Under the pieces are notes generated by a model. That model was not told the DNA's origin and made no database searches. It worked only from the letters and a program-made list of their open reading frames with translations. A stretch of 64,000 nucleotides of DNA. It comes from an uncultured Myxococcales bacterium. GTDB taxonomy: Bacteria > Myxococcota_A > UBA9042 > GCA-2863065. Positions 3,839-62,679 of the stretch are shown here, in pieces. The DNA is taken from positions 17,789-81,788 of the forward strand of contig CAZJHX010000014.1 in assembly GCA_964545715.1 (NCBI GenBank), written 5' to 3'. Position numbers and translations under genes: made by a program. Position 1 is the first letter of the stretch, and each line of letters starts with the position of its first letter.

Positions 3839-4834
3839 TTACTCTTCGAACGGGAACGCGACGCCAGTGATCTTCTCCAGCGCGTTGGCGGCCTGAATGA
3901 GCCCGCCGGCGGAGTGATGAATCTTCATCTCCTGGTCCACCACGATGAAGTGCGGCAGGACCGGGTTTCCGCCCGTCCAGTGGGCAGCCGCGGGGCGCAC
4001 CGCGTTGAAGTTGGGGTCGTTCACGGTCAGGATCGGGTCCCCCGTGTTGAAGTCCTTCTCGTACTGAGCCGCGAAGGCCTGGGTCGAGGGGTTCTGGAAG
4101 TTGTCCTGGCCAACGATCATGATCACTTGGACATCGTGTTCCTCGTAGAACTCTGCCATCGCACGGACGGCCGGCGAATTCGCCTTACAAGCCGGTCACC
4201 AGCCCGCCGTTTCCATCATCAAGACGGCTGATTTCATGCCGCAGTACTGGTGGAGCTCGACCGGATTCCCGGCCGTGTCCTTCCACAGCACGTTCTTGAT
4301 CTGGCTGCCGACCTGGATGCCGGTGCCGGCCGCCACGCACATGTCCTGGCTGCCGCACTGGCCGTATTTGTTGCACAGCGCGCCGCCCTCGCACTCACCG
4401 CAGGTGCCGCCGCATCCGTTGGCGCCGCACTGCTTGCCGTTGCAGGCCGGAACGCACTCTGTGGTGCAGGAGGCCGTGTCCGGGTTGCAGACCATGCCCG
4501 CGTCGCAGCTCTCCACGTCGTACCAGGCCAGCCCGTCACCCTTGCAGGCCACGACGACGCCGTCCTGACAGGTCACGGTGCCCGGATCGCAGACCGGCGT
4601 GGGCTCGATCGGGTCGACCGGATCCTCGACGCCCGTCGCCTCGGTCAGGTCTTCTTCGCCGGTGTCGGCCTGCGGGTCCAGCTCCTCTTCTGGAGGCGCT
4701 TTGTCCGTCTCGGCCGTTGGATCCGACTCATTGCCCGCGTTGCCGCCGGCGTCAGGCGAGCACCCGAAGATCAGGCTCGCCGTCGCTAGCGGGATGAGAA
4801 AAAAGGGAGTGCGTACAACCAACTTCATGCTCAC
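3839..4834 (-). CDS. Lipoprotein with a Cys-rich module and a C-terminal TlpA/ResA-like thioredoxin-fold domain, interrupted by a single in-frame TGA at 4196-4198 (candidate selenocysteine; alternatively pseudogene or base error)
   Basis: ORFs 4196-4834 and 3839-4159 lie in the same frame, separated only by a TGA. Read through, the protein gives ...IKNVLWKDTAGNPVELHQYCGMKSAVLMMETAGW-[TGA]-PACKANSPAVRAMAEFYEEHDVQVIMIVGQ..., matching the TlpA-family pattern FxLxDxxGxxVxLxxxxGKxVLLxFWAxWCxPC, with the TGA at the first Cys of CxxC. The N-terminus is MSMKLVVRTPFFLIPLATASLIFGC (lipobox), followed by an acidic linker and a Cys-rich module. Confidence 0.6.
4165..4195 (-). ncRNA. GC-rich imperfect hairpin in the mRNA immediately 3' of the in-frame UGA (possible SECIS-like element)
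   Basis: The mRNA after the UGA reads CCGGCUUGUAAGGCGAAUUCGCCGGCCG. The palindromic core GGCGAAUUCGCC is flanked by CGGC/GCCG, giving a bipartite stem with an internal loop and its apex about 17 nt after the UGA. The position is compatible with a bacterial SECIS, but this is not validated. Confidence 0.3.
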
Positions 4835-5197
4835 TTAGTACGACTGACCGTCGATCAATTCAATAGGGATCTGGAATGCGTCGACGCCCTCAACGCATCC
4901 CAGGTTCACCCGATACTTGCCCGGAAAGGCCGGCCCGTCGTGAAACGGGTAGATCCCACACGTGCTGCAGAAGTGGTGATAGACGTCCAAGTCACCGAAC
5001 TGATACGTGGTCAGCTTGTCCAGCCCCTCGACCGACTCAAAGTCTTCCGGCGGGTAGTATTTCACCGAGACCACCGCGCCTTTTCGGCGGCAGATGGAGC
5101 AATTGCACCGCTTGCCGGCGGTGATCTCTTCGCTGCGAAAGACAAAGCGCACCGCGCCGCAGTGACAGCTTCCCTCATATGTATGCAGTTCGGCCAT
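4835..5197 (-). CDS. GFA-family (glutathione-dependent formaldehyde-activating / CENP-V-like) zinc-binding protein
   Basis: Cys-rich signature EGSCHCGAVRFVF...CNCSICRRKG...HHFCSTCG, typical of PF04828. Three in-frame ATGs are present. I chose the third (MAELHTYEG) to avoid overlap with the divergent gene. Its stop lies 1-2 codons upstream of the start of the TlpA-like gene, so the two are probably co-transcribed. Confidence 0.8.
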   Translation of the reverse strand: MAELHTYEGSCHCGAVRFVFRSEEITAGKRCNCSICRRKGAVVSVKYYPPEDFESVEGLDKLTTYQFGDLDVYHHFCSTCGIYPFHDGPAFPGKYRVNLGCVEGVDAFQIPIELIDGQSY

Positions 5198-5246
5198 GGT
5201 GGCGCGGACCATAGCATGGTGAACTGAGGTCATGAGATGGCGTCAC

Positions 5247-5720
5247 ATGGCGGTGCTGGCGATCGTCGCAACGGCGTGCGGCGGGTGCACGTTTGCCACG
5301 TCAGCGGGCTTCGCGGGCGCGATCCCCGACGATCCCGAGCAGCGCGGCGGTTATGCGCACATCTACACCGGGATCGGGGGCAAGACGCTGCATTACACCG
5401 CCGACGTGCGGGGCCACATCAGCCGGCAATCGGGCGCGATCGGCCTGGGCGGCGGCTTGCTCTCGCCGTGGTTTCCGCGCTCCGCCGTCACGCCGTTCAG
5501 CCACATCGGCATCGACTCGCTGGACTTCGGCTGGGTCGGCAACGAGTTCTCGTTCGGCATGCTCTCGCCGTGGGCCGAGCTGGGCGTGCGGTTCGGCCGC
5601 CGGCGCTTCTTTGTGATAGGCGCGGGAATCGAGTACGTCGTCCGGTTCACACACGCGTCGTCGCCTGTCTACATGGTCTTTATCGGCCTGGGCAGCTACA
5701 AGCCGCTGCGCCTGCGTTAG
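5247..5720 (+). CDS. Small hypothetical lipoprotein, Gly/aromatic-rich (possibly a beta-barrel)
   Basis: MAVLAIVATACGGC lipobox. It runs divergent from the GFA gene. The competing 702-aa ORF 5237-7345 is antisense to the TSP3 gene and has R/A/V/H-biased composition, so this short frame is preferred. Confidence 0.5.
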   Translation: MAVLAIVATACGGCTFATSAGFAGAIPDDPEQRGGYAHIYTGIGGKTLHYTADVRGHISRQSGAIGLGGGLLSPWFPRSAVTPFSHIGIDSLDFGWVGNEFSFGMLSPWAELGVRFGRRRFFVIGAGIEYVVRFTHASSPVYMVFIGLGSYKPLRLR

Positions 5721-8083
5721 TTGTCGATGCCACAGCCGTCGTCGGGGTCCAGCGGGCAGGGGTCGCACACGTCGCCCTTGCCGTCGTTGTCACTGTCCTG
5801 CTGCGCCTGCAAGATGTTGGTGATGCAGTCCACCGACTCGTAGTCGCCGCCGTTGTCGATCAGCGCGTGGAGCACCGCCGAGCCGTCCGTCTTGTCGACC
5901 TTGAACAGCCCATTGAACGTGGTCCCGATCAGCTGCCCCTGCGGGTCGAAGCCCAGGCCCTCCATGTCGTCGATCGTCTCGCCGTCCTCGACCAGCGGCC
6001 CCACCACTTCAGTGGCGCCCGTGTCCTTGTTGACCGTGATGATGTGCGTCTTGGTCCCGCTGTTGTTCTGCAGGGCGTACATCACGCCCGTCGTGGGATC
6101 GATCGCCAGGTCGTCGATGTCGTCGTTTTTGCCGTTCTTCTCGATCACGACAAAGTCCTTGCCCGGGCCGAAGGCGCTCTTGGTCACCAGGCCGGTGAGC
6201 ACGTCGATGCGGATCAGCAGATCCGGCGACACCTTGCGCACGCTGCCGTAGAGGACGCCGGTAGCGGGGTCGAACGACAGCCCATCGACGTCGGCCACGG
6301 ACTGGTCGTTGGCCTTGCCAAATTTGTTCGGCAGCGCCACAAACACGCCGGTGGTCAGGTCCAAGGTCCCCAGCTGATTTGCGTCCGCCGCGTAAAGCTT
6401 GCCGGTCAGCGGATGGAAGGCGCAGGCCTCCACCGTATTCGTCCCGGTACCCGCGCCGATGTTCGTCTCGTTTGTCTTTGGGTCCGGATTGCTCTTGTCG
6501 ACCAGCGTGAGGATGTCGTCGCCGCCCGCGCCGCCACCGTTGTCCGCCACCAAAAAGCACGTGTTCACGTCAGCATCGTCGCCGTTGGGCACCTTGGGGC
6601 AATTGTCCACGTCGCCGCAGTAGCCGTCGCTATCCTCATCGTTGTTGGGATCCGCCGGGCACGGATCGTCGATGGCGCACAGTCCGTCCCCATCCGCGTC
6701 GTCCAGCGGGTCCAGCGGGCACTCATCACAAGCGTTGCCGACGCCGTCCTCATCGGTGTCCAGCTGCGCGGTGTTGGGCGTGTCCGGGCAGTTGTCGCCT
6801 GCGCCGCAGACGCCGTCGTCGTCAGGGTCGTTCAACACATCGCTCAGGCACGGATCGCACACATCCCCAACGCCATCCGCGTCCTCGTCCGCCTGATCCA
6901 GGTTGGCGATGTCGGGGCAGTTGTCCACGTCGGCGCACAGCCCATCCGCGTCGCCGTCCGGCGCGTCCACCGGGCAAGGCTCGCACGCGTCTCCTTTTCC
7001 GTCTTTGTCCGCATCCAGCTGATCCGCGTTGGCCACTGTGGGGCAGTTGTCAGCGCCTGCACACAGGCCATCGCCATCCTCGTCATCGGCGGCGTCCTTG
7101 GGGCACATGTCACACGCGTCACCGGCGCCATCCAGGTCAGAGTCCAGCTGATCCCCGTTAGCCTTATCCGGGCAGTTGTCCACGTCACCGCACACCGAGT
7201 CCCCGTCCGCGTCGTTCAGCGAGTCGAACGGGCACAGGTCGCAGACGTCGCCCTTGCCGTCGCCGTCGCTGTCGATCTGCTCCGGGTCCGGATCCGTCGG
7301 GCAGTCATCGATGTTGTCCGGGATGCCGTCGCCGTCGGTGTCTGAGGGCGGCGGCGTCCCACAGTCCGCGTCGCAAAGTCCCCATCCTGCCGAGCCGAGA
7401 CACACCTGCTCGCCTTCGCAGGGTCCGGCCTCCTCTTCGACCGTGCACGCGACCTTCAGGCCCTCGGTCGCGGTCCCGCAACACGGCAGCTCGCCCGCGG
7501 GCTGACACAGCTCGTCCACGCACTCAAACCCGTCCTTGCACAGCCCCAGCTCACCCTCGCACGTGGCCAGGCACTGCCCGTCCCGACAGGCCGTCGCGCC
7601 CAGGCAGGCGGCGTCGTCCGTGCACTCGCCACAGACCGCGCCCGGCTCGGGAACGCACAGGAAGATGAGGTCGCCGCCCTGCCCCGTCGTCACGCCCTTG
7701 CACGTCCACGCCTCAGGGCACTCGGTCACGCAGTTTTCGGTGCAGATCGTGTTGTCGGGGCCCTCGACGCACCAACCCTCGGGGCAGTCCTCGTTGCTCT
7801 CACACGCGTCGCCGAAGTGTGGTCCGCCAAACTCTTCGGCGCCCGTGTCCGACGTCCCAGAGCCTTCCTCATCCGCGGTGCCGGTGTCGGTCGCGGCGGA
7901 GCCCTGCGTCTCGTCGGTCTCGGTCCCGCTGTCGCCGGTGTCCCCGACGCCGCCGGTCCCCGCTGTGCCCCCGCCGTCCACGGCCGCAACAACGTCTGCC
8001 AGCGCGCCGTCCGGGTCGTCGTCTCCACACCCCAGCAACGCCGAAAACATGCTCAGAAGTGCCATGACCAAGAAGAACCGCAT
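5717..8083 (-). CDS. Large secreted lipoprotein with Cys-rich EGF-like modules, about 12 thrombospondin type-3-like calcium-binding repeats (DxDxDGxxDxxDNCP) and a C-terminal beta-propeller-like region
   Basis: Signal and lipobox MRFFLVMALLSMFSALLGCGDDD (the Met at 8083 is preferred over the ORF-track Met at 8158). Repeated motifs include DSDGDGKGDVCDLCPFD and DADGDGLCAGADNCPTVANADQLD. Confidence 0.8.
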   Translation of the reverse strand: MRFFLVMALLSMFSALLGCGDDDPDGALADVVAAVDGGGTAGTGGVGDTGDSGTETDETQGSAATDTGTADEEGSGTSDTGAEEFGGPHFGDACESNEDCPEGWCVEGPDNTICTENCVTECPEAWTCKGVTTGQGGDLIFLCVPEPGAVCGECTDDAACLGATACRDGQCLATCEGELGLCKDGFECVDELCQPAGELPCCGTATEGLKVACTVEEEAGPCEGEQVCLGSAGWGLCDADCGTPPPSDTDGDGIPDNIDDCPTDPDPEQIDSDGDGKGDVCDLCPFDSLNDADGDSVCGDVDNCPDKANGDQLDSDLDGAGDACDMCPKDAADDEDGDGLCAGADNCPTVANADQLDADKDGKGDACEPCPVDAPDGDADGLCADVDNCPDIANLDQADEDADGVGDVCDPCLSDVLNDPDDDGVCGAGDNCPDTPNTAQLDTDEDGVGNACDECPLDPLDDADGDGLCAIDDPCPADPNNDEDSDGYCGDVDNCPKVPNGDDADVNTCFLVADNGGGAGGDDILTLVDKSNPDPKTNETNIGAGTGTNTVEACAFHPLTGKLYAADANQLGTLDLTTGVFVALPNKFGKANDQSVADVDGLSFDPATGVLYGSVRKVSPDLLIRIDVLTGLVTKSAFGPGKDFVVIEKNGKNDDIDDLAIDPTTGVMYALQNNSGTKTHIITVNKDTGATEVVGPLVEDGETIDDMEGLGFDPQGQLIGTTFNGLFKVDKTDGSAVLHALIDNGGDYESVDCITNILQAQQDSDNDGKGDVCDPCPLDPDDGCGIDN

Positions 8084-8217
8084 AGGCAAACCGTACCACA
8101 AACGGGCCACGCAAAGCCCTTCCGGCGCCAAACTCAGGTGGGGCCGAAAGTCCGGCACGGGTAATGCAGTACCCCCAGACGGCAGCCGGTGGGACGGCGC
8201 GCCAGGGAGGAAGACCG

Positions 8218-9306
8218 ATGAAAATGCAAGCCGCCATGATGGCCCTTTCCGTTGTCTTTGCGCTCGGCTGCGCCGCCGAAGCCCCGACGATCATTGGTGA
8301 GGTCGACAGCTGGGCCGACGCGCCCTTCGCCAAGGGCGACGGCACCGATGAGGCCGACACCTCCTGCCGCGTCGTGCTCCGACAGATCGGCCACTCCAAG
8401 ACCAACGTCTACTCGGGCGACCTGTGGGTGACCTTCTCCGGCAAGTTCGACGTCGCCGAGTCCCTGATCGCCGACGGCGCCACTCCCATGCTCATCTACA
8501 AAGCCGGGTCCGAGAGCAAGTTCAACTGGGCCAACGGCACGCCGTCCGGACGCGGGCCGACCGGCTTCAAGCGCTTCTCCTTCAAGCTGGACGCCGGCAC
8601 GCTCATGCCCCACGACGTAGAGTTCAAGCGCGACACGCTGCAGGTCATCGCGGTCGCCAGAACCGCCGACGGGCGCATTCTGGACCACAACAGTCGTGGC
8701 CTTGAGAGCGCCGGTGTGGAGCTGACGCCGGAGAACAAGTACCGCTTCTCCGCGCCGAGCTCGACCTGCTCAGCGCCGATGCGCGCCGCCGAGGTCAACA
8801 AGGACGACCCCGACAAGGTCACCCTGGTCGTCAAGACCGGGCCCGCCAACGAGGATCCCTGCGCCAACGGCGCGCCGCTGCTCAACGAGTACACCGTGCG
8901 CGACTATCAGACCGACGCCGGCAACAGCGTGCACCTGTGCGCCTTTGTGGCCAAGACCGGCGTCACCGACGGCTGGGGCACAAGTCCGGAGACCGCGGAT
9001 GTCTTCGACGTGAAGCTGCAGTACCGCTTCGCACGCTCAGGCGACTTCACGCCGACGTCCCTCACCTTTCACAAGGTGGCCAACAAAACCGCCGTCTACA
9101 CGGTCAACTTGAACGAGCTGGACCCGTTCCCCGAGAGCGGCTGCCCGGCGGAGGGCGTCGCCCTGGAGTACAAGGAAGAGGCCTTCAACATGTGGGCCCG
9201 CGCCGAAATGTACGTGACGGTCGGCACCAAAGAGTACAAGCCCCAGGCGGGCGGCTTCTTCAGCGCCCTGTACGGCGCCTTTCCCGCCTTCGAGTGCCTC
9301 CACTGA
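8218..9306 (+). CDS. Hypothetical lipoprotein
   Basis: MKMQAAMMALSVVFALGCAAE lipobox. Clean 363-aa frame with no recognisable domain. Divergent from the TSP3 gene. Confidence 0.65.
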   Translation: MKMQAAMMALSVVFALGCAAEAPTIIGEVDSWADAPFAKGDGTDEADTSCRVVLRQIGHSKTNVYSGDLWVTFSGKFDVAESLIADGATPMLIYKAGSESKFNWANGTPSGRGPTGFKRFSFKLDAGTLMPHDVEFKRDTLQVIAVARTADGRILDHNSRGLESAGVELTPENKYRFSAPSSTCSAPMRAAEVNKDDPDKVTLVVKTGPANEDPCANGAPLLNEYTVRDYQTDAGNSVHLCAFVAKTGVTDGWGTSPETADVFDVKLQYRFARSGDFTPTSLTFHKVANKTAVYTVNLNELDPFPESGCPAEGVALEYKEEAFNMWARAEMYVTVGTKEYKPQAGGFFSALYGAFPAFECLH

Positions 9307-12280: not shown

Positions 12281-14011
12281 CTACTTCTCGGCCTCTGTCT
12301 CCACTTTGAGGTGCAGCAGCCAGGCGATCAGGTAGTTCATCTCAGAGGGGCTGAGATGATCGAACGCGGGCATGCCGTCGCCAAGCTCACCGTAGAACAG
12401 CTCGCCTGTCGGCTGGGCCATCATGTCGGCCAGCCACTGCTTGCCGCCGAAGCCCTCGAGAGCCGGCCCCTCGCCCGACGTGCCGTCCAGGGTGTGGCAG
12501 CCGCTGCAGTCGCCGTCTTCGAACAGGGTTGCGCCTTTCGCCGCCAGCGCGCGGTCGATGGGCGGGTCGTAGGCTTCGCCGCTGAGGCTGGCCAGAAACT
12601 CCACCATAGGCGCAAACTGGCCGGGCTCGAGGTCGGCTGCGTCCATGCCTGTCCCTTCGTCCTCGTCGTATTTCAGCTTCGTGACGCCGAAGTGCTTGGG
12701 GTGGCTCGGGTTGCGGAGAAAGCGCTCCAACCAGACCCGGCTGAGGTACCCGCGCAGCGACGGACCCTTGTCCTCCTCGATGATCTCCAACGTCTCATGG
12801 CACTCGTCGCAGCGCTGCTGGCGAAAGACCTTGTGGCCCTCGAACAGGACAACCGCGCCGCGCGCGTCGATGCCCCACTCCTCGTTGGCGGCATATCGGC
12901 GCGCCTCCTCGGCGTCCCGAGCGGCCTCCGCCAGCTTCTCCTGAAACTCGGGGTTCGCCCCGTCCTCACGGGCGGCCACGACGGTCAGCAGGACGACGGC
13001 GCCGACGCCCGCAAAGAAGACCACCGCCCACAGCTTGCGCGCAGCCAGTCGGCGGTCCTCGGCGCGGTCGAGGAACGGCAGCAGCACCAGGAACACGGTG
13101 GCCAGCCCGGGCAGCACCACCGTCCCAAAGAGCACCATGGGCCCTTCAAAGTACTTGAGCAGCTGGAACAGGAACAGGAAGTACCACTCGGGGCGCGCGT
13201 CGTACTCGCTGGCGGGGTCCGCGGGGGCGTCGAGAGGCGCCCCGACCCACACGCTGAGAGCGATGAGCAAGGCCAGAATAGCCAGCACAAAGACCGCGTC
13301 CATAAGCACCTGGACAGGCCAGAACCAGCCGCTCTTCGACTTCAACTCAGCCTCGCTGAGGCCGGGCGGCGGGGTCACGCCATGGCGCCGGAAGAGGTAC
13401 ACGTGCAGGCCGATGAGGCCGACGGTCAGCACCGGCAGCACAAAGACGTGCAGCGCGTAGAAGCCGGTGAGCGTGCGGTTACCGTAGTCCGAGCCGCCCT
13501 GAAAGAGCGTCTGGATGGTCTCGCCGATGAGCGGCAGTCCACCGGCGATGTTGGTCGCGACTTTCGTGGCCCAGTAGCCCTTCTGATCCCACGGCAGCAG
13601 GTAGCCTGTCAGCGAGAAGCCCATGATCAGCCCGAGCAGCATCAGGCCGGTCAGCCAGTTGACCTCCCGCGGCTTCTTATATGCACCGAACAAGAAGACC
13701 TGCAGCATGTGCAACACGCACAGCACGACCATGGCGCTGGACCCGAAGTGGTGCAGGCCGCGGATCAGCCAGCCCATCGTCACCTGGTGCTGGATCGCGT
13801 AGACAGAGCCCCAGGCGTCGGTGGTGGACGGGCTGAAGTAGAACGCCAGCAGGATGCCGGTGACCGCCTGAATAGTGAACGTGAGCGCAAGCCCGCTGCC
13901 GAAGACGTAGGCCCAGCGCGGACCGCCCGGGATGTGCTCGTGCAGCGCGGCCTTGCCAAGGCTGATCAGCCCGGTGCGGTCTTCCACGAAATCAACGATC
14001 TTCCGGAGCAC
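12281..14011 (-). CDS. Cytochrome b (bc-complex type) fused to a C-terminal di-heme cytochrome c domain
   Basis: Bis-His helices (IRGLHHFGSSAMVVLCVLHMLQVF; HVFVLPVLTVGLIGLHVYLF) and a PEWY-like segment (PEWYFLFLF). The C-terminal ~200 aa carry two CxxCH heme c sites (CDECH, CSGCH). Confidence 0.9.
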   Translation of the reverse strand: MLRKIVDFVEDRTGLISLGKAALHEHIPGGPRWAYVFGSGLALTFTIQAVTGILLAFYFSPSTTDAWGSVYAIQHQVTMGWLIRGLHHFGSSAMVVLCVLHMLQVFLFGAYKKPREVNWLTGLMLLGLIMGFSLTGYLLPWDQKGYWATKVATNIAGGLPLIGETIQTLFQGGSDYGNRTLTGFYALHVFVLPVLTVGLIGLHVYLFRRHGVTPPPGLSEAELKSKSGWFWPVQVLMDAVFVLAILALLIALSVWVGAPLDAPADPASEYDARPEWYFLFLFQLLKYFEGPMVLFGTVVLPGLATVFLVLLPFLDRAEDRRLAARKLWAVVFFAGVGAVVLLTVVAAREDGANPEFQEKLAEAARDAEEARRYAANEEWGIDARGAVVLFEGHKVFRQQRCDECHETLEIIEEDKGPSLRGYLSRVWLERFLRNPSHPKHFGVTKLKYDEDEGTGMDAADLEPGQFAPMVEFLASLSGEAYDPPIDRALAAKGATLFEDGDCSGCHTLDGTSGEGPALEGFGGKQWLADMMAQPTGELFYGELGDGMPAFDHLSPSEMNYLIAWLLHLKVETEAEK

Positions 14012-14553
14012 TACGCCGGGACCTTCTCAACGACGCCCGACTTGAAGCGCTCGAAGGTGCAGTACAGCACGCCATCGCGTACGACGTGCTCCAGAGCGTC
14101 CATCGGGCGGGGAGACGGGTTGGTCTCTTCCCCCTCCTCGACCTTGGCGCCGTCGACGTCGAAGCGGCTTCGGTGACAAGGGCAAATGAAGCCCTCCTCC
14201 GCTTTGTTCACGGCGCAGCCCAGGTGCGGACAGATCGACGACAGCACCCTGAATTCGGCCGGCTCGGCCTTGGCGCGCACGACCCACACCGAGCCGATGG
14301 TGACGCCGCGAGTCGTGACCCACGCGTCTCGGCGGTCGGCCGTAATCGAAACCTTTTGGGGCACGCCGACCTCAAAGCCGTCGACAGGTCCCAGTCGGCT
14401 CTCACCCGCTGACACGCCGATGGTGTCCTCGATGAGCGGGTGAGCCAGAAACACAGCGCCCGGCACCGCAACAGCGCCGCCGATCACCACTCCGACCGCG
14501 CCGGTGAGCTTCCCAAGGAAGTCCCGGCGGTCGCCTTCATCATTGTGAGCCAC
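14011..14553 (-). CDS. Rieske [2Fe-2S] subunit of a cytochrome bc-type complex, Tat-exported
   Basis: RRDFLGKL twin-arginine signal. Rieske boxes CPHLGC and CPCHRSRF. Its stop overlaps the start of the cytochrome b gene. Confidence 0.9.
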   Translation of the reverse strand: MAHNDEGDRRDFLGKLTGAVGVVIGGAVAVPGAVFLAHPLIEDTIGVSAGESRLGPVDGFEVGVPQKVSITADRRDAWVTTRGVTIGSVWVVRAKAEPAEFRVLSSICPHLGCAVNKAEEGFICPCHRSRFDVDGAKVEEGEETNPSPRPMDALEHVVRDGVLYCTFERFKSGVVEKVPA

Positions 14554-15343: not shown

Positions 15344-17239
15344 TTACGTCTTTGGGCCGGACTTCATGAAGCCCAGATCTTCCATGTCCTCCGCCCAATC
15401 CTCGTCGGTCATCACCGGCGCGGGCGGGACCCCATCAGGCCGCGGCGCAGGTGCCGAGGCCGGCGCGACAGAGACGACCGGCGCCTGGCTGGTCTCCGTA
15501 ACGTTCAGCACCTCCTCGAGAGACGTGGCCCCTGCGACTACCTTTCGCAGGCCGTCCTCGAAGATCGAGACCATGCCGCTTTTTCGGGCGGCGCGGTCCA
15601 GGTCGTGGCGGTCGGCGCCGTCCGCGATCATGGCGCGGATCTCGTCGTTGACGATCAGGATCTCGGCGATGGTGTGCCGGCCGCGGTAGCCGGTGTCGAA
15701 GCAGTGCACGCAGCCGCCCGGCACGGCCACTTGCTCCAGGGTTCGGTATTGCGGTGGAAGCAACGCCAGCAGCGCCGGATCCGGCGGCCCCAGCTGGCGA
15801 CACTTGGGGCAGAACCCGCGCACCAGCCGCTGGCTGACAACCGCCCTCAGACTGCCCGCCAGCAGGTAGGGCTTGGTGCCCATGTCGACCAGCCGGCTGA
15901 TCGCCGAGACCGCGTCGTTGCTGTGCACCGTGGCCAGCACGAGGTGCCCGGTCAGGCTGGCGCGCACCGCGTTCTCGGTGGTGTTCTGGTCGCGGATCTC
16001 GCCGACCATGATCACGTCCGGGTCCTGCCGCAGCACCGACCGCAGGATCTGGCTGAAGCTGAGCCCGATCTCGTCATCGACCTGGATCTGGGTCACCCCG
16101 TCCATCTGGTACTCGACCGGGTCCTCGATGGTCGTAATGTTGCGGGTGCCGGTGTTCAACGCCTCCAGCGCGGCGTACAGCGTGGTGCTCTTGCCCGACC
16201 CGGTGGGCCCGGCGACCAGGACGATCCCGTTGGGGCTGCGCAGCACCTGCCGCAGCGCCAGGTACTGATCCTTGGTAAAGCCCAGGTTCTCCAGCCCCAG
16301 CAGCGCGGCCTGCTTGTCCAGGATCCGCATCACGACCTTCTCACCGTGCAGGGTCGGGGTCGTGGCGACGCGGAAGTCGATGTCGCGCCCCTCTACCTGA
16401 ATGTGAAAGCTGCCGTCCTGCGGCAGGCGGCGCTCGGCGATATCCAGCTCACAGAGGATCTTGATTCGGTTCACCAACTCCGGCGCGATCGCGATCGGCA
16501 GCTGCTGCACAGTCTCCAGAATCCCGTCGATTCGGTACTGCACCAGCACGTGGCGCGAGGTCGGCGTCAGGTGGATGTCGCTGGCCCGTCTCACAAGCGC
16601 CTGCAAGAGCAGCAGGTTCAGCGTGCGGATGACCTGATTGCTCTCGGCGGCCGCGCTGCTCAGGTTGACGGTGAGCCCGATCCGGGCGGCCAGCGCCGAC
16701 CCTTGATCGCGTACACCCTCCAGCAACCGCTCCACGCGCCGGGACTTGTAGTGATCGTTGTACTCGCCCAGCTTTTTGGAGATCTCGCCCGCCGACGCCA
16801 GCAGAAACTCGACCCGCTTGCGCACGACGCTGGAGATGGTATCCGTGGTCGCGATATCGCCGGGATCGGCGCACGCAACCTGCACTTTGCCGCCCTCCTG
16901 CGAGAACGCCAGCACCCGGTATTGCAGCGCGATATTCTCGGGGATCAGCTCCACCACGGACGGGTCCGGCGTCAGCGTGGCCACGTCCACAAACGTGTAC
17001 TGCTCGCGCTCGGCCCGCAGCATGATGAGGTCGCGCTCGCTGACGTACCCCAGGTCTTGCAGCACGTGGTTCATGGGCACCTGCGACCGCCGCATGACCG
17101 CGCGGATCCGAGGAACATCGTCCAGGGGCACGTGTCCCTTGGCGATCAAGGCCTTCAAGAGCCCGCGATCGCGCTTGTTCAAAGCAGAGAGTCCACCCAC
17201 GCTGCCCCCTTCAACTGTCTGTAGCTGAGCGTGCAGCAT
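15344..17239 (-). CDS. GspE/PilB-family secretion ATPase (T2SS/T4P-type)
   Basis: N-terminal T2SSE_N-like domain, Walker A GPTGSGKST, Asp/His boxes and a tetracysteine motif (CPKC...CVHC). An unusual Pro/Ala-rich acidic C-terminal tail is present. No other T2SS/T4P genes are adjacent. Confidence 0.9.
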   Translation of the reverse strand: MLHAQLQTVEGGSVGGLSALNKRDRGLLKALIAKGHVPLDDVPRIRAVMRRSQVPMNHVLQDLGYVSERDLIMLRAEREQYTFVDVATLTPDPSVVELIPENIALQYRVLAFSQEGGKVQVACADPGDIATTDTISSVVRKRVEFLLASAGEISKKLGEYNDHYKSRRVERLLEGVRDQGSALAARIGLTVNLSSAAAESNQVIRTLNLLLLQALVRRASDIHLTPTSRHVLVQYRIDGILETVQQLPIAIAPELVNRIKILCELDIAERRLPQDGSFHIQVEGRDIDFRVATTPTLHGEKVVMRILDKQAALLGLENLGFTKDQYLALRQVLRSPNGIVLVAGPTGSGKSTTLYAALEALNTGTRNITTIEDPVEYQMDGVTQIQVDDEIGLSFSQILRSVLRQDPDVIMVGEIRDQNTTENAVRASLTGHLVLATVHSNDAVSAISRLVDMGTKPYLLAGSLRAVVSQRLVRGFCPKCRQLGPPDPALLALLPPQYRTLEQVAVPGGCVHCFDTGYRGRHTIAEILIVNDEIRAMIADGADRHDLDRAARKSGMVSIFEDGLRKVVAGATSLEEVLNVTETSQAPVVSVAPASAPAPRPDGVPPAPVMTDEDWAEDMEDLGFMKSGPKT

Positions 17240-17281
17240 ACCCGATCGGTCGCGTGATGATCACGGCGCAATCTGAGTCGC

Positions 17282-36588: not shown

Positions 36589-36647
36589 GGCCAATCGAGT
36601 ACTATCCGCTGCGCAACCCTGTTCTTGGATTTCGGAGAAGTAAACAA

Positions 36648-38225: not shown

Positions 38226-38272
38226 ACATTCAAGATATCCAACCCGGGGAAATATCCCCAAGCCGCGCGACG

Positions 38273-38298
38273 TTGCCGCATTGATACCAATTGCGGCA
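38273..38298. promoter_or_regulatory. Imperfect inverted repeat TTGCCGCAttgataccaATTGCGGCA in the intergenic region between paralogs A and B
   Basis: Seen directly in the sequence about 45 nt upstream of the paralog B start. It could be an operator or a weak terminator. No T-tract follows. Confidence 0.25.
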
Positions 38299-38342
38299 CC
38301 ATGGGCGGACTTCACCAAATGTACGAAAAATGGAGAGTACAC

Positions 38343-39863: not shown

Positions 39864-39885
39864 GTAACCAACACGGGGGCGCCCT

Positions 39886-59074: not shown

Positions 59075-59721
59075 GGCCCCTTCAGCCTCACAAACCACGG
59101 ACGTCCGGGGCGGGTCACCAGCTCCGCGAGAATGCGCGGTCCAGGTGCGCAATAGCGACCGGCGGCCGGCTTGGCGCCAAAGCGTGACAGCTGCGCAGTG
59201 ACGTAGACGTCCGGGGTCTCGAGCAGCCGGGTTGCCTGCACGTCCGTGATCGTCACGCAGCCGCGCATAGCGATCGGGCGAACCTCGTCGCCCGGTCCCA
59301 CCTCGCACACGTTGGTGCCCAGCTTGTAGTGGTAGCCCACATCGGTGGCCGTCAGAAGGTCTGACGCGGCGGCGCAAGCCTGTTGCTTTGTCGGCGCGTC
59401 GGGCGGCATGGCGGCGCGATACGTTGCGGCGGCGCCGATAGCCAGAACGACGGCGCACGCCACAGCGGCCAGTCGGTATCGCGACGGCATCGCTTTTTCA
59501 GCGGGGTCCCAGGCCGGCACGCTCGGGACGTTCTCTGCGCCGCGCTCCTGCAACAGATCGCGGGCAGCGCGGCGTGCGGCGTACAGGTAGACGCCGTCCT
59601 CGACCCACGGGACGTCGCCGGCGGCTATCTCTCTAAGTTCGTCTTCACCCAGGTGCCGATATTGCCGCCGAAAAGCGGCCTCGACGCGGTCGTCGTTCAC
59701 TTGGCGGCCGACAGCGCGCAC
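59071..59721 (-). CDS. Hypothetical protein with one internal TM segment
   Basis: 216-aa frame with a hydrophobic stretch LAAVACAVVLAIGAAATY. It overlaps the dsbD-like gene by 25 nt, so it is probably co-transcribed. Confidence 0.45.
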   Translation of the reverse strand: MRAVGRQVNDDRVEAAFRRQYRHLGEDELREIAAGDVPWVEDGVYLYAARRAARDLLQERGAENVPSVPAWDPAEKAMPSRYRLAAVACAVVLAIGAAATYRAAMPPDAPTKQQACAAASDLLTATDVGYHYKLGTNVCEVGPGDEVRPIAMRGCVTITDVQATRLLETPDVYVTAQLSRFGAKPAAGRYCAPGPRILAELVTRPGRPWFVRLKGP

Positions 59722-62210
59722 TTGAGCTGTGGCTCGTGAATCGCGCTCTTGTGGACCCAGGCGATGTGGCCCTTGGGGTGGATCAGATAGGTCATCGGCA
59801 GCTCGCCGCTGGCCGCCTTGAAGACGTCCGGCAGCCCCGCCTCGTCCAGTGCCACGCCCGCGAACAGGGTGGTCTTGGGGTCCAGCTTGGTGTCCGCGGC
59901 AAAGGCCACGGCCGCATCCTTGCTGTCCGGCTCGTCAAAGGCCACGGTCAGAAACTTCACGTTGGGCGCGCTTTTCAGCGCCGGCGGGAAATCGGCCTTC
60001 AGCTCTTTGCGGCACGGCGCGCACCAGGACGCCCAGAAATTCAGCAGCACCCAGCTCCCGCGTAGTGACGACAGCGCGACAGGCGCGCCGCCGGAGAGCG
60101 TCGGATACTTCAACTCGACCAGCGGACCGTCGGGAGCCATGGCCGGCGGTGTGCAGCCCGCGGTAGGCGTGGGCTCCACCGGCGGCGGTGTCGGAACAAC
60201 CCTCTTCACGGGAGCGCCGCGCGGCTGCACAGTGGCCGTCGGCGTCTCGGGCTTGACGGCGGTAAACGCGGCCAGGCCCTTGTCCAAGAACGCCACGAAC
60301 TCAGCCGGGTCCTGCGTCATGTCGGCAAACGTGGCCAGCACCGTGTCATCGTAAGGGTTGATGATCGCGTAGAACGGCAGCGCGGCGGTGTCGAAGCGGC
60401 GCAGCTGCAGGTCGCGCTGCTCCTCGTTGACCTTGGCGGTGCCGTCCGTGTACGCCGTCACCCGCACCATCTGCTCCAGCCTGGAGCGCACCTCCGGCCG
60501 TGGGAAGACCGAGCCCTCCATGTAGCGGCAGTTCGTGCACGTGTATCCCGTAAAGTCGACAAAGACCGCCTGCGCGTTGGCCTTGCCCACCCGCATGCCT
60601 TTGGGGATGTCGTCGACAATCCACGAGAGGTGTCCGTCATGGCCACCGTCACCCTCGACCATCTGGCCCGGGTAGACCGCGGGTGGCAGCCAGCCGTCCA
60701 GCCACCCACCCATGCTCTTGGTGTCGCGAATGCCCGAGAACGAGTATGCGGCCACTGCGAACATGCAGATGGCAAAGAACATGCGAATCGGGCTGATCGT
60801 GCGCAGCGTGGGATCGTTGTGCGGCAGCGGGAAGAGACGCAGCAGGTACATGCCGGCCACGCCGAACGTGGCGACCCAGATCGTCAGCACGAACGGCCGC
60901 GTGACCAGCTCCCAGCCCCACAGCAGGTCCACGTTGGACAGAAACTTGAACGCGGCCGCAAACTCCAGGAAGCCCAGCGTGACCTTGACCGCGACCATCC
61001 AGTCGCCGCTCTTGCCGCGCAGCTTGTCCGCCCAGGATGGGAACATCGCCAGCAGGAAGAAGGGCACCGAAAACGCGGTGGAGAAGGACAGCATGCCGAT
61101 GGTGGGGAAGAACCAGTTGCCCTTGGCCGCCTCGGCCAGAACGATGCCGATGAACGCGACTGTGCAGGTAAAGGACACCAGCGTGAACGTCAGCGCCATG
61201 AAGAAGACGCCCGCCAGCTGGCTGGTCAGCGAGCCGTCGTCGTCGACCAGCTCCCGCTCTTTGTCGCTGGATCGGTTGATCAAGAAGCTCGGGATGTGGA
61301 TCTCAAACTGCCCGAACAGGTTGAACGCAAAGACGAAGAGCAGCCCGGCCAGGAACAGGTTGAAGTAGGGCGACGCGGAGATCGCCTGCATCCCGACCGC
61401 CCCGAAAACCAGCGACACGACCACGCCCAGCAGCGTGAACGTGGCGATGATCGAGATCGCGTAGACAGACGCCATGATGGCTGACCGGCGCAACGACACC
61501 GCGGCGAACTTGGAGAAGAAGCTGACCGTGATCGGGATCATGGGGAACACGCAGGGCGTCAGCAGCGCGGCCAGCCCGGCTAAGAACGCAAAGATGATGT
61601 ACCCGAGCATGCCGCCCTCGACCGGCAGGCCGCCCGTCTTGGGCGCAGCGGTGACAGACCCGGCAGGGGGCTTTCTATCCGGCGTGAAGGCGATACCGGC
61701 GAGCTTTGGCGGCTCGGCGTGACCAGCGCGCGGCGCGCCCGCCTGTATCGTCAGCGTCGGGCTGACCACCTTCTTGAACGGGATGCACCGGCTCTCGTTG
61801 CAGATCTGGCCGCGCGCGGTGACCTTGACCGGGACCGCACCCGCCGCGCCGACCACCTTGACCACCCGCGCGTGCGCGACCGTGCCGTCGTAGTACTCCA
61901 CCTCTTTTTGAAAGTTGGGATCCAGCTCGACGGTGGGCTCGGGCGCATACCAATCGCCGACCGGCTCCACAGCCCCGGCCTCCACCTGGATGCGCAGCTG
62001 CATCGGTCCCATCGGGATCTTCGTCATGCTGTACAGGTGATAGCCGGCGGGCACGGTGGCGCTCACCTGCAAGGTCACATGCTCGCCGGGGTGCGCGGTC
62101 GCCGGGTCAAAGGCCGCGTTCAGCTCGATCGCGGGGTCTTTGGCGGACGCCGCCGTCGCGAGGCTGAGAACAAGAAGTAGTACGGGGATGGGGCGGGGGA
62201 TGGGAGTCAG
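59697..62210 (-). CDS. dsbD: Thiol:disulfide interchange protein DsbD (alpha, TM-beta and gamma domains) fused to an additional C-terminal TlpA-like thioredoxin domain
   Basis: DsbD-alpha Cys pair (QICNESRCIPF). TM domain Cys residues (LTPCVFPMIP; FTCTVAF). Gamma CxxC (YTCTNC). A Pro-rich linker, then a TlpA-like domain with WASWCAPC. One continuous frame. The start is uncertain (probably CTG at 62210 before the signal peptide PIPVLLLVLSLATAASA). Frame upstream of that is UTR read-through. Confidence 0.75.
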   Translation of the reverse strand: MTPIPRPIPVLLLVLSLATAASAKDPAIELNAAFDPATAHPGEHVTLQVSATVPAGYHLYSMTKIPMGPMQLRIQVEAGAVEPVGDWYAPEPTVELDPNFQKEVEYYDGTVAHARVVKVVGAAGAVPVKVTARGQICNESRCIPFKKVVSPTLTIQAGAPRAGHAEPPKLAGIAFTPDRKPPAGSVTAAPKTGGLPVEGGMLGYIIFAFLAGLAALLTPCVFPMIPITVSFFSKFAAVSLRRSAIMASVYAISIIATFTLLGVVVSLVFGAVGMQAISASPYFNLFLAGLLFVFAFNLFGQFEIHIPSFLINRSSDKERELVDDDGSLTSQLAGVFFMALTFTLVSFTCTVAFIGIVLAEAAKGNWFFPTIGMLSFSTAFSVPFFLLAMFPSWADKLRGKSGDWMVAVKVTLGFLEFAAAFKFLSNVDLLWGWELVTRPFVLTIWVATFGVAGMYLLRLFPLPHNDPTLRTISPIRMFFAICMFAVAAYSFSGIRDTKSMGGWLDGWLPPAVYPGQMVEGDGGHDGHLSWIVDDIPKGMRVGKANAQAVFVDFTGYTCTNCRYMEGSVFPRPEVRSRLEQMVRVTAYTDGTAKVNEEQRDLQLRRFDTAALPFYAIINPYDDTVLATFADMTQDPAEFVAFLDKGLAAFTAVKPETPTATVQPRGAPVKRVVPTPPPVEPTPTAGCTPPAMAPDGPLVELKYPTLSGGAPVALSSLRGSWVLLNFWASWCAPCRKELKADFPPALKSAPNVKFLTVAFDEPDSKDAAVAFAADTKLDPKTTLFAGVALDEAGLPDVFKAASGELPMTYLIHPKGHIAWVHKSAIHEPQLKCALSAAK

Positions 62211-62232
62211 CGCAGAAGTGTGGTTGGTGTGG

Positions 62233-62679
62233 TTAGTCTTCTTCGGCTTCGTCGTTGTCGTCAGGGGAGTCGTCCGGCGCTTGCGGATCCAGAGGCTGCG
62301 GGCTGCCGTGACCGACACCGTCGCCCTGGCTGTCGTCGCAGTTCGGCGCGGGATCGAACTCGCCGCCGCCGCTCTCGGTGTCGCACTTCTCGGCGCCGGG
62401 ATCGCCCTCTTCGATGTGGCCTGGGAGGTTGGGCGGCGGGCTGCCGGACTCGCCCTGATCGGACTTGCCGTTTCGAGCGCTCGGGTTGGAAGCATAGCCT
62501 TCCTCCGACGTCTCTTCGCCTTGAGTCAGGGACTCTTCACCTGTCTCCGTTTTGGGATCGGGCTGAGTCTCTTCTGCCACCTCGTCTTCGCCAGGTCCCA
62601 AAAGGCACCCGTTGACAACCAACGCCAGCGCAACGAGCGCCAGCGCCACGAGGAACCGTCTTATGAGTCGGTCCGTCAT
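62233..62679 (-). CDS. Small highly acidic lipoprotein (148 aa)
   Basis: MTDRLIRRFLVALALVALALVVNGC lipobox. The remainder is D/E/G/S/P-rich and low-complexity. Confidence 0.5.
   Translation of the reverse strand: MTDRLIRRFLVALALVALALVVNGCLLGPGEDEVAEETQPDPKTETGEESLTQGEETSEEGYASNPSARNGKSDQGESGSPPPNLPGHIEEGDPGAEKCDTESGGGEFDPAPNCDDSQGDGVGHGSPQPLDPQAPDDSPDDNDEAEED

What the first reader, a model, noticed from the sequence alone, without database searches (positions are those of the whole stretch)
3839..4834. Candidate selenocysteine (UGA-recoded) TlpA-like thiol:disulfide oxidoreductase lipoprotein
Two ORFs (4196-4834 and 3839-4159) are in the same frame, separated by a single TGA. Read through, they form one textbook TlpA/ResA-type thioredoxin-fold domain, and the TGA falls exactly on the first redox residue, giving W-U-P-A-C, that is, a UxxC motif in place of WCxPC. 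The mRNA right after the UGA can fold into a GC-rich bipartite hairpin (CGGC...GGCGAAUUCGCC...GCCG), at about the distance expected for a bacterial SECIS. Deltaproteobacteria are the richest bacterial group in selenoproteins, and thioredoxin-fold UxxC selenoproteins are an established class. The gene is a secreted lipoprotein with an extra Cys-rich module. It sits in an apparent operon with a GFA-family Zn-thiol protein. A DsbD-TlpA fusion lies elsewhere in the window, so periplasmic thiol redox chemistry recurs here.
Basis: partly seen in the sequence, partly recalled or inferred. Interest (0 to 1): 0.8.

Follow-up and report, generated by a model that had tools for sequence, protein, structure and literature searches.

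The report
Selenocysteine TlpA-like lipoprotein gene
The two ORFs are almost certainly one gene for a membrane-anchored, exported disulfide reductase whose first catalytic residue is selenocysteine encoded by UGA; it is a well-supported but unsurprising new member of a known class, and databases currently annotate it as two fragments.

Summary
On the minus strand, 4828..4199 and 4195..3842 share one frame and are separated by a single TGA (4198..4196). Read through, they give a 329-aa lipoprotein whose AhpC-TSA/Redoxin domain spans the TGA, with the motif W-U-P-A-C.

Comparative evidence:
- The same codon is TGA in 12 other loci, at 21-55% identity, from roughly 8-11 lineages.
- Homology and purifying selection continue past the TGA.
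- Six relatives carry Cys at that position (WCxxC).
- The resolving Cys, which lies inside the supposed intergenic gap, is invariant.
- TGA is a normal stop elsewhere in the window.
- The base call recurs in at least six independent assemblies.

An adjacent hairpin (4171..4155, GCCGUC-CGUGC-GAUGGC) meets the stem, loop, loop-G and spacing rules. Its bare-hairpin energy (-7.3 kcal/mol) falls just short of the model's -7.5. It also keeps a rare CGU codon in all four close orthologues. Folding energy alone does not separate Sec forms from Cys forms.

I could not check the Sec machinery, and the taxonomy is unresolved. The GFA neighbour is not conserved.

Verdict: a new member of the known Trx-fold UxxC selenoprotein class, of moderate interest.

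The parts
3839..4828 (-). Complete read-through CDS of 329 codons plus TAA. The start is ATG 4828, as called in public assemblies; GTG 4834 is an alternative. The Sec codon is codon 211.
   Evidence: (P0001 starts MKLVV)
4760..4828 (-). Signal peptide with lipobox L-I-F-G-C. Cys23 is the predicted lipidation site.
   Evidence: Read directly from the sequence. All family members carry an L-x-G/A-C lipobox after a hydrophobic N-terminus.
4592..4759 (-). Acidic, Pro/Asp/Glu/Thr-rich low-complexity linker (residues 24-79).
   Evidence: The AlphaFold2 model of the Cys orthologue P0002 has pLDDT below 50 over its N-terminal 86 residues, which include the equivalent linker.
4337..4591 (-). Cys-rich module of 15 Cys (residues 80-164), including the motif C-x-P-x-C-x-G-K-Q-C-G-x-x-G-C-G-G-T-C-G-x-C. 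It has no Pfam or NCBIfam match. Copy number varies among relatives.
3842..4336 (-). TlpA/ResA-like thioredoxin-fold domain (residues 165-329) with active site W210-U211-P212-A213-C214.
   Evidence: Pfam, weak ResA/TlpA matches in NCBIfam, model of the Cys orthologue and fold search
4196..4198 (-). In-frame TGA, the predicted selenocysteine codon (residue 211).
4187..4189 (-). TGT, the resolving Cys214 of the UxxC motif. It is invariant in all 13 Sec forms and in the six WCxxC Cys-form relatives; one further relative, P0010, has lost the motif. It lies inside the supposed intergenic gap.
4168..4194 (-). Core GGCG-AAUU-CGCC at 4184..4173, with outer pairs CGGCU/GGCCG. This candidate lower or auxiliary SECIS helix fails the loop-G and spacing rules.
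4155..4171 (-). Hairpin 2, GCCGUC-CGUGC-GAUGGC, at +28..+44 from the U of UGA. It has a 6-bp stem, a 5-nt loop with G at position 2, and 30 nt of spacing. It is the best candidate for the SelB-binding apical hairpin.
   Evidence: The rare codon CGU is conserved in 4 of 4 orthologues.
59697..62525 (-). DsbD (DsbD_N, DsbD_TM, Thioredoxin_7) fused to an extra TlpA-like domain. It is a candidate electron donor; this is inferred and no physical link is shown.

Best explanation
One gene (4828..3839, minus strand) encodes a 329-residue prolipoprotein. It consists of a signal peptide with a lipobox (Cys23), an acidic linker, a disulfide-rich module and a C-terminal TlpA/ResA-like thioredoxin-fold domain.

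The UGA at 4198..4196 is decoded as selenocysteine. SelB-GTP carrying Sec-tRNA(Sec) is recruited by mRNA structure immediately downstream. The most likely binding site is the hairpin GCCGUC-CGUGC-GAUGGC at 4171..4155, possibly helped by the preceding hairpin at 4194..4168.

The mature protein is exported, lipid-anchored and faces the periplasm or cell surface. Its Sec211-x-x-Cys214 pair acts as a reductant or isomerase of disulfides, or of other oxidised sulfur, in extracytoplasmic client proteins:
1. The selenolate attacks the substrate.
2. Cys214 resolves the mixed selenenylsulfide.
3. A DsbD/CcdA-type membrane electron shuttle re-reduces the Se-S bond. One DsbD is encoded at 59697..62525.

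Shown here: the gene structure, the fold assignment, the conserved TGA/Cys column, coding constraint past the TGA, a SECIS-compatible hairpin and the lipobox.

Inferred: actual Sec insertion, the identity of the hairpin SelB binds, cellular location, clients and electron donor.
For: - The domain spans the TGA.
- TGA occupies the same active-site column in L001-L005, L013, L014, L016, L017, L027, L033, L065, L093, L095, L097 and L099. Homology continues downstream in all of them.
- Cys forms carry WCxxC at that column: P0002, P0008, P0009, P0012, P0015 and P0016.
- dN/dS is about 0.3-0.4 both before and after the TGA in five of the six pairs among four orthologues (about 0.8 after the TGA for window versus L095), and dS is about 1.
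- The resolving Cys, three codons after the TGA, is invariant. No stop or frameshift occurs in the 36-nt gap in any locus.
- The stop is always TGA and never TAA or TAG, including in loci with lower GC.
- TGA is an ordinary stop for 18 of 44 coding-like ORFs in the window, and only one TGA-joined coding pair exists. Pfam domains end just before TGA stops.
- The base call recurs in six assemblies.
- Hairpin 2 meets the stem, loop, loop-G and spacing rules of the published bSECIS model.
- Hairpins meeting those rules occur at 10 of 13 Sec sites. The background is about 15% of codon positions in the same genes, and 0 of 4 Cys forms have one.
- The rare Arg codon CGU makes up 7% of Arg codons in the window and 14-16% in relatives. 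In the hairpin-2 loop it is the only 4- or 6-fold degenerate codon identical in all four orthologues.
- The Cys orthologue L101 encodes the same T-I-R-A-A context with CGG and has no such hairpin.
- In the AlphaFold2 model of Cys orthologue P0002, the CxxC sits at the N-terminus of helix alpha-1, with pLDDT 87-97. The best PDB matches are ResA, B. anthracis thiol-disulfide oxidoreductase and the pneumococcal lipoprotein thioredoxin Etrx2.
Against: - No selA, selB, selD or tRNA-Sec lies in the 64-kb window or in any fetched locus.
- No Rfam SECIS match.
- The MFE of the region after the UGA is ordinary for these GC-rich genes.
- MFE does not differ between Sec and Cys forms.
- For the window itself, MFE is no better than that of synonymous recodings (z=+0.34).
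- Covariation is weak. Hairpin 2 is nearly invariant, and the AGUUC-loop group has only one double-sided change among four sequences.
- Bare hairpin 2 evaluates to -7.3 kcal/mol, just short of the model's -7.5.
- The -6 kcal/mol threshold used for the enrichment count was chosen after seeing the data.
Confidence: 0.85

Rival explanations
1. The UGA is translated, but not as selenocysteine. A suppressor or allo-tRNA, or near-cognate read-through, would insert Cys, Trp or Gly and give a full-length protein without selenium.
For: All the comparative evidence shows only that the codon is translated, not which residue is inserted. No Sec machinery could be checked.
Against: TGA terminates many ordinary genes in the window, so there is no general reassignment. 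The position is the nucleophilic Cys of a CxxC motif, and Cys forms exist there, which is the classic Sec/Cys signature. A SECIS-model hairpin is enriched at these sites. UxxC thioredoxin-fold selenoproteins are the commonest predicted marine selenoproteins (PMC2398784).
Confidence: 0.07
2. The TGA is a real stop, and the locus is a split gene or pseudogene. A 210-aa Cys-rich lipoprotein would be made, and perhaps a separate 106-aa product from the ATG at 4159.
For: Public gene callers annotate it this way (P0001 plus P0005). An AUG lies at +40 in five of the Sec loci.
Against: - A split at this point would cut a thioredoxin fold between strand beta-1 and the active-site helix, and the UxxC would be deleted.
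- The 36-nt gap keeps frame, has no stop and encodes an invariant Cys in 13 loci.
- dN/dS after the TGA equals that before it.
- Several Sec forms have no start codon at the equivalent place: L013, L033 and L065.
- The same 'nonsense' codon recurs at one column across 21-55% identical homologues.
Confidence: 0.05
3. The TGA is a sequencing or assembly error for TGC or TGT.
For: It would take a single-base difference.
Against: The identical TGA appears in six independent assemblies of this organism from different samples and pipelines. It also appears in 12 other loci from other organisms.
Confidence: 0.01

Closest known systems
[quoted passage not shown] They are catalogued in PMC13188914 and PMC2398784.
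   Same: Thioredoxin fold matching PF00578/PF08534. Sec replaces the first Cys of CxxC. Cys-form homologues exist. A hairpin lies just after the UGA. Marine metagenomic origin. Fusions of such selenoproteins to Cys-containing domains of unknown function have been reported.
   Different: No reference sequences of those families could be fetched, so direct membership is untested. This family is small: 17 hits at E<=1e-3 among 1.8 billion representatives. It reaches no curated NCBIfam cut-off. It combines a lipobox, an acidic linker and a variable number of CxPxCxGKxCGDDGCGGxCGxC repeats.
ResA / TlpA / CcmG (DsbE) extracytoplasmic thiol:disulfide reductases
   Same: Best structural matches are ResA and B. 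anthracis ResA-like 4nmu, with target-normalised TM 0.73-0.81. Weak sequence matches to ResA and TlpA models. W-CxxC at the start of helix alpha-1, an invariant Pro in the L-P-x-F strand (the usual cis-Pro position), and membrane anchoring.
   Different: Scores are far below equivalog cut-offs (25 versus 170 bits for ResA, 23 versus 230 for TlpA). There is no cytochrome-c-maturation or cytochrome-oxidase-assembly gene context. The nucleophile is Sec instead of Cys. An extra disulfide-rich module is present.
Etrx1/Etrx2, surface-exposed lipoprotein thioredoxins of Streptococcus pneumoniae (PDB 2yp6, 4hqs)
   Same: Lipoprotein anchoring combined with a TlpA-like fold. Among the top fold matches.
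   Different: They belong to a Gram-positive host and use Cys. They have no Cys-rich module. Their partner MsrAB2 and CcdA genes lie adjacent, and no such partner is conserved here.
Bacterial SECIS consensus (bSECISearch model; E. coli fdhF archetype)
   Same: Hairpin 2 has a 6-bp stem and a 5-nt loop with G at position 2 followed by U. It lies 30 nt after the UGA and inside the coding sequence.
   Different: The bare hairpin is -7.3 kcal/mol against the -7.5 limit. Loop positions N1 and N2 (C, C) cannot pair. A second hairpin lies between the UGA and this one. No Rfam model matches.

Membership tests
Bacterial selenoprotein gene | In-frame UGA with the protein-coding signal continuing downstream | tested here: met
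   One Pfam domain spans the TGA. dN/dS after the TGA is about 0.3-0.4 in five of six orthologue pairs, the same as before it. The GC1/GC2/GC3 coding pattern is present on both sides.
Bacterial selenoprotein gene | Homologues carrying Cys at the column of the UGA | tested here: met
   P0002 WCSAC, P0008 WCSAC, P0009 WCVTC, P0012 WCTLC, P0015 WCYWC, P0016 WCAIC.
Bacterial selenoprotein gene | Independent homologues with TGA at the same column | tested here: met
   12 further loci at 21-55% identity.
Bacterial selenoprotein gene | SECIS hairpin just downstream, per the bSECIS model: 3-9 nt loop, 4-16 bp stem, G in the first two loop positions, 16-37 nt spacing, MFE <= -7.5 | tested here: inconclusive
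   Hairpin 2 meets the loop, stem, G and spacing rules. It is -7.3 kcal/mol alone and -15.3 in context. Hairpin 1 fails the G and spacing rules. Model-type hairpins are enriched at Sec sites (10 of 13 versus about 15% background). MFE, synonymous-recoding and covariation tests are weak for the window itself.
Bacterial selenoprotein gene | selA, selB, selD and tRNA-Sec in the same genome | not testable with these tools
   None in the window or in fetched loci. The species is absent from the genome collection, and other contigs of the genome cannot be retrieved.
Bacterial selenoprotein gene | Selenium physically present in the protein | not testable with these tools
   Needs 75Se labelling or mass spectrometry.
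TlpA/ResA-like thiol:disulfide oxidoreductase superfamily (PF00578/PF08534, cd02966) | Thioredoxin fold with a W-CxxC motif at the N-terminus of helix alpha-1 | tested here: met
   Pfam above the gathering score (48.6 versus 26 bits). In the model of Cys orthologue P0002, strand 212-218 is followed by helix 223-240 with WCSAC at 221-225. Top PDB matches are ResA-type proteins.
TlpA/ResA-like thiol:disulfide oxidoreductase superfamily (PF00578/PF08534, cd02966) | Extracytoplasmic location (signal peptide, anchor or lipobox) | tested here: met
   The hydrophobic N-terminus plus L-I-F-G-C is read from the sequence and conserved across the family. No dedicated predictor was available.
TlpA proper / ResA proper (NCBIfam NF047696, NF002854) | Score above the curated cut-off | tested here: not met
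   23.2 versus 230 bits for TlpA and 25.5 versus 170 bits for ResA.
Peroxiredoxin (AhpC/BCP) | PxxxT/SxxC peroxidatic motif | tested here: not met
   The active-site context is M-E-T-A-G-W-U-P-A-C. It has no Pro four residues before a Thr, and the motif is the Trx-type WCxxC.
Curated NCBIfam selenoprotein families (e.g. NF041054 WAxxUGC ResA-like) | Match above the cut-off to a selenoprotein-specific model | tested here: not met
   No such model hit the window protein. A relative scored 18 versus 300 bits on NF041054.

The most novel reading that the evidence does not exclude
This may be a selenoprotein family not yet catalogued. It would be a lipid-anchored, extracytoplasmic Sec-dependent reductase carried on a variable-length stalk of disulfide-rich CxPxCxGKxCGDDGCGGxCGxC repeats, from 1 to more than 12 copies. 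Sec and Cys would have been exchanged repeatedly within the family. In the window's subgroup, the recoding signal would be a two-hairpin element whose second loop (CGUG) is held by a rare codon. Databases would systematically split these genes into two fragments.
Probability: 0.4. Interest if true: 0.5.

Novelty: new member of a known kind. Interest (0 to 1): 0.4.

Why it matters
Thioredoxin-fold UxxC selenoproteins are the commonest class of predicted bacterial selenoproteins, so the chemistry is expected. The value is practical.

Every public copy of this family found here is annotated as two truncated ORFs, so the gene is invisible to function prediction.

The family also offers natural Sec/Cys pairs at 40-55% identity in an exported, lipid-anchored reductase. 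That is a convenient system for asking what selenium buys an extracytoplasmic thiol-disulfide enzyme.

It further shows that folding energy alone cannot identify a SECIS in GC-rich genes, whereas conservation at synonymous sites can.

Tried and rejected
- **Rfam.** At gathering thresholds over the whole window, and at E<=10 over 4100-4260, only noise appeared and no SECIS family.
- **tRNA search.** ARAGORN on the window and 34 loci found no tRNA-Sec.
- **Genome-contig scan with the family alignment.** Nothing was found, so the species and its close relatives are not among the GTDB representatives. Alignments of the post-TGA part were too variable for the tool.
- **Taxonomy from the PilB-like ATPase core.** All hits were about 45-52% identical and spread over many phyla. 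The top hit was a Myxococcales MAG at 49%, so no assignment was made.
- **MFE versus other windows of the same gene.** Unremarkable; the window ranks at the 36th percentile.
- **MFE of Sec versus Cys forms.** No difference (Mann-Whitney p=0.71).
- **Synonymous-recoding z-scores.** Window +0.34; mean of Sec forms -0.83 versus Cys forms -0.09; only L093, L097, L065 and L033 were individually notable.
- **Covariation counts.** Too few sequences: 89 of 500 shuffles were as good for the AGUUC-loop group, and hairpin 2 showed no covariation.
- **Conserved operon.** The GFA neighbour and DsbD proximity are not conserved in the L001, L093 or L006 contexts.
- **Peroxiredoxin reading.** Rejected on the motif.
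- **NCBIfam selenoprotein models.** None matched.
- **Submitting the U-to-C window protein to the HMMER scan.** The exact post-TGA translation was used for the HMMER scan and the Cys orthologue P0002 for structure prediction.
Full report
**Observation**

The minus strand of 3839-4834 holds two ORFs in one frame, and a single TGA at 4198..4196 separates them. Translation across it reads ...AVLMMETAGW-*-PACKANSPAVRAMAEFYEEH.... With U written as C, Pfam AhpC-TSA (E=9e-13, profile positions 1-123 of 124) and Redoxin (E=3e-11) match a single domain that runs from about 38 residues before the TGA to about 94 residues after it. Neither ORF alone would hold a thioredoxin fold.

I scanned all six frames of the window for segments joined by TGA with a coding-type GC1>GC2, high-GC3 pattern on both sides. 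The scan returned exactly one pair, and it is this one.

Public assemblies call the start at ATG 4828 (P0001 = MKLVV..., 210 aa). On that numbering the product has 329 residues, with U211 and C214.

**Not an error and not a code change**

The same TGA is present in six independent assemblies of this organism: four JGI samples, one ENA assembly and one Logan assembly. TGA ends 18 of 44 coding-like ORFs in the window. Pfam domains of several of those ORFs finish a few residues before the TGA, for example the AMP-binding enzyme, an ABC ATPase and DsbD. TGA is therefore a normal stop in this genome.

**Comparative evidence**

This is the core of the case.
- A word-indexed search found three clusters. 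One is the query's own N-terminal fragment. One is a full-length Cys form, P0002 (44% identical...ETAVWCSACTALAP...). The third, P0003, stops at ...EVAGW.
- Its locus L001 reads AGW-TGA-PACAQLAPAIRAMAQFYEEH, and the sequence stays 55% identical through the rest of the domain.
- A metagenome scan followed by a six-frame search for W-*-x-x-C with open frame on both sides found the same arrangement in more distant relatives. These are L013/L017 (W*SSC), L014/L016 (W*GSC), L027 (W*TTC), L033 (W*PGC) and L065 (W*GTC). Homology continues past the stop in these loci.
- A full HMMER scan with the 118 residues after the TGA returned 17 proteins in total. Four short 'proteins' among them (P0006, P0007, P0011, P0013) each lie 36 nt downstream of an ORF ending in TGA. 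These are L093 (W*SAC), L095 (W*PAC), L097 (W*GNC) and L099 (W*SAC).
- The same scan gave further Cys forms: P0008 WCSAC, P0009 WCVTC, P0012 WCTLC, P0015 WCYWC and P0016 WCAIC. It also gave one relative that has lost the motif.

In total 13 loci, from roughly 8-11 lineages, carry TGA at the column where six relatives carry the nucleophilic Cys of a WCxxC motif. The stop is always TGA. The Cys three codons later is invariant. The 36-nt 'gap' never contains a stop or a frameshift.

Among the four closest Sec forms, dN/dS is about 0.3-0.4 both before and after the TGA in five of the six pairs (about 0.8 after the TGA for window versus L095), and dS is about 1. These lineages are therefore old, and the downstream frame is under the same constraint as the upstream one. 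This rules out a pseudogene or split gene, because a split would leave the conserved xxC untranslated.

**Recoding signal**

Its loop has no G, and it begins 15 nt after the UGA. It therefore fails two rules of the published bacterial SECIS model. That model requires a 3-9 nt loop, a 4-16 bp stem, G in the first two loop positions, 16-37 nt spacing and MFE <= -7.5 (PMC13188914). The hairpin is also not in register among orthologues.

Directly after it lies GCCGUC-CGUGC-GAUGGC (4171..4155). This second hairpin has a 6-bp stem, a 5-nt loop with G second and U third, and 30 nt of spacing. It evaluates to -7.3 kcal/mol alone and -15.3 with its surroundings. It is conserved in L001, L093 and L095. 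The only stem change is G-U to A-U, and the only loop change is C to A.

Among 27 codon columns with an identical, degenerate amino acid in the four orthologues, six have identical codons. Five of those are preferred two-fold codons. The sixth is Arg CGU in this loop. CGU makes up 7% of Arg codons in the window and 14-16% in relatives. The Cys orthologue L101 encodes the same T-I-R-A-A context with CGG and forms no such hairpin.

Across the family, a contiguous hairpin meeting the loop, G and spacing rules at <= -6 kcal/mol is found at 10 of 13 Sec sites. The background is about 15% of codon positions in the same genes, and 0 of 4 Cys forms have one. At -7.5 kcal/mol the count is 6 of 13 against about 9%. 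Counting conservatively as seven lineages gives p of about 0.002. This figure is my own calculation, and the -6 threshold was chosen after the fact.

The following tests do not support a special structure:
- The MFE after the UGA is ordinary for these GC-rich genes.
- MFE does not differ between Sec and Cys forms.
- For the window, MFE is no better than that of synonymous recodings (z=+0.34). The family mean is -0.83 against -0.09 for Cys forms.
- Covariation is too thin to be significant.
- Rfam has no match.

My reading is that a SECIS-compatible element is present. Hairpin 2 is the better candidate for the SelB-binding apex. Only an experiment, or many more orthologues, can settle it.

**The protein**

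The N-terminus MKLVVRTPFFLIPLATASLIFGC is a signal peptide with a lipobox. Every family member has one. An acidic Pro/Asp/Glu/Thr linker follows, and then a Cys-rich module with no Pfam or NCBIfam match. The module contains the motif CxPxCxGKxCGxxGCGGxCGxC. Relatives have from one copy to more than twelve, and the motif occurs in hundreds of metagenomic loci. I read it as a disulfide-stapled stalk of variable length; this is an inference.

An AlphaFold2 model of the Cys orthologue P0002 gives pLDDT 87-97 for the catalytic domain. It places WCSAC between strand 212-218 and helix 223-240. The best PDB matches are B. anthracis and B. subtilis ResA, S. meliloti SMc02350, pneumococcal Etrx2, FetE and DsbF, with target-normalised TM up to about 0.8.

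Sequence matches to ResA, TlpA and MauD models are far below their cut-offs, and PDB sequence hits are marginal. The Prx motif PxxxTxxC is absent.

The protein is therefore a TlpA/ResA-like extracytoplasmic thiol:disulfide oxidoreductase. It is not an orthologue of TlpA or ResA, and it is not a peroxiredoxin.

The expected chemistry follows established Trx-fold mechanisms. The exposed N-terminal residue of the motif, here a selenolate, attacks the client disulfide. Cys214 resolves the mixed selenenylsulfide. A DsbD/CcdA-type shuttle re-reduces the enzyme.

**Context**

The GFA gene (4835..5233, Pfam E=4e-15) ends 6 nt before the start codon. Orthologues have other neighbours: DUF2861 in L001, a HAD, GCS2 and glutamine-synthetase cluster in L093, and unrelated genes in L006. 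No conserved operon is supported.

The window encodes a DsbD with an extra C-terminal TlpA-like domain at 59697..62525, 55 kb away. It is a plausible electron donor, but nothing links it to this gene.

No selA, selB, selD or tRNA-Sec lies in the window or in any fetched locus. The species is not in the genome collection.

Marker-based taxonomy failed. PilB-like ATPase hits are about 50% identical across many phyla, and a Myxococcales MAG is nominally first. 'Deltaproteobacteria' therefore remains unverified.

**Comparison with what is known**

[quoted passage not shown] They also report fusions of such selenoproteins to Cys-containing domains of unknown function. These families are abundant in marine metagenomes (PMC13188914; PMC2398784).

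The present gene works like these and belongs to that class. Whether it is one of the already named subfamilies could not be tested, because their reference sequences were not retrievable. It reaches no curated NCBIfam model, and all public copies found here are annotated as two fragments.

I rate it a new member of a known kind and moderately interesting. Confidence that it is a genuine selenoprotein gene is about 0.85. The main gap is the unchecked Sec machinery.

Noticed in passing
window 36585-41499 (+): Three tandem paralogous ORFs of about 545 aa, 58% identical to each other. Each is built from three internal repeats of about 175 aa (FNACGxKSxYNKVWHWKTMKGNWEYVCDVDF ... KIMFDYD ... EIEFWFKQK). 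None has a Pfam match.
   Followed up: partly
window 59697-62525 (-): DsbD (DsbD_N, DsbD_TM, Thioredoxin_7) carrying an additional C-terminal AhpC-TSA/Redoxin (TlpA-like) domain at residues 811-923. This is an unusual four-module fusion.
   Followed up: partly
L080, minus strand; TGA at plus-strand 424-426: A separate candidate selenoprotein of AhpC/Prx-like type (...VVFYRGHW-U-LFCRLQL...). The hairpin CCAGCUC-GGC-GAGCUGG begins 14 nt after the UGA codon. It lies on a contig fetched only because of a Cys-rich-module hit.
   Followed up: partly
P0009, P0010, P0012, P0016, P0018 (relatives, no window coordinates): Cys-form relatives carry a different Cys-rich tail at the C-terminus (C.G.CGG...GCWCD..C...G.CC..NC..CG.C) instead of N-terminal repeats. 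P0010 has lost the CxxC altogether (WSTPD).
   Followed up: no
window 4835-5233 (-) and loci L001, L093, L006: The GFA-family gene abuts the selenoprotein gene, with a 6-nt gap, only in this organism. Orthologues have unrelated neighbours, so the apparent operon is lineage-specific.
   Followed up: yes
window 5717-8290 (-): An 857-codon ORF for a protein with thrombospondin type-3 repeats and a Cys-rich N-terminal region, two genes upstream of the selenoprotein gene, beyond the GFA gene and a small divergent ORF. Cys-rich exported proteins recur in this neighbourhood.
   Followed up: no
window 12281-14026 (-) and 15344-17260 (-): A cytochrome b / cytochrome c fusion next to a Rieske protein, and a PilB-like type IV pilus ATPase. 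The best genome-collection hits for the ATPase are only about 50% identical and come from many phyla, so the organism has no close sequenced relative in that collection.
   Followed up: partly
L013, L014, L016, L017 (TGA +18..+36): These distant Sec forms share a hairpin with the invariant loop AGUUC, encoded by conserved Ala-Ser-Ser codons GCC-AGU-UCG. Four of its seven stem pairs vary without breaking, including one U-A to A-U swap.
   Followed up: yes
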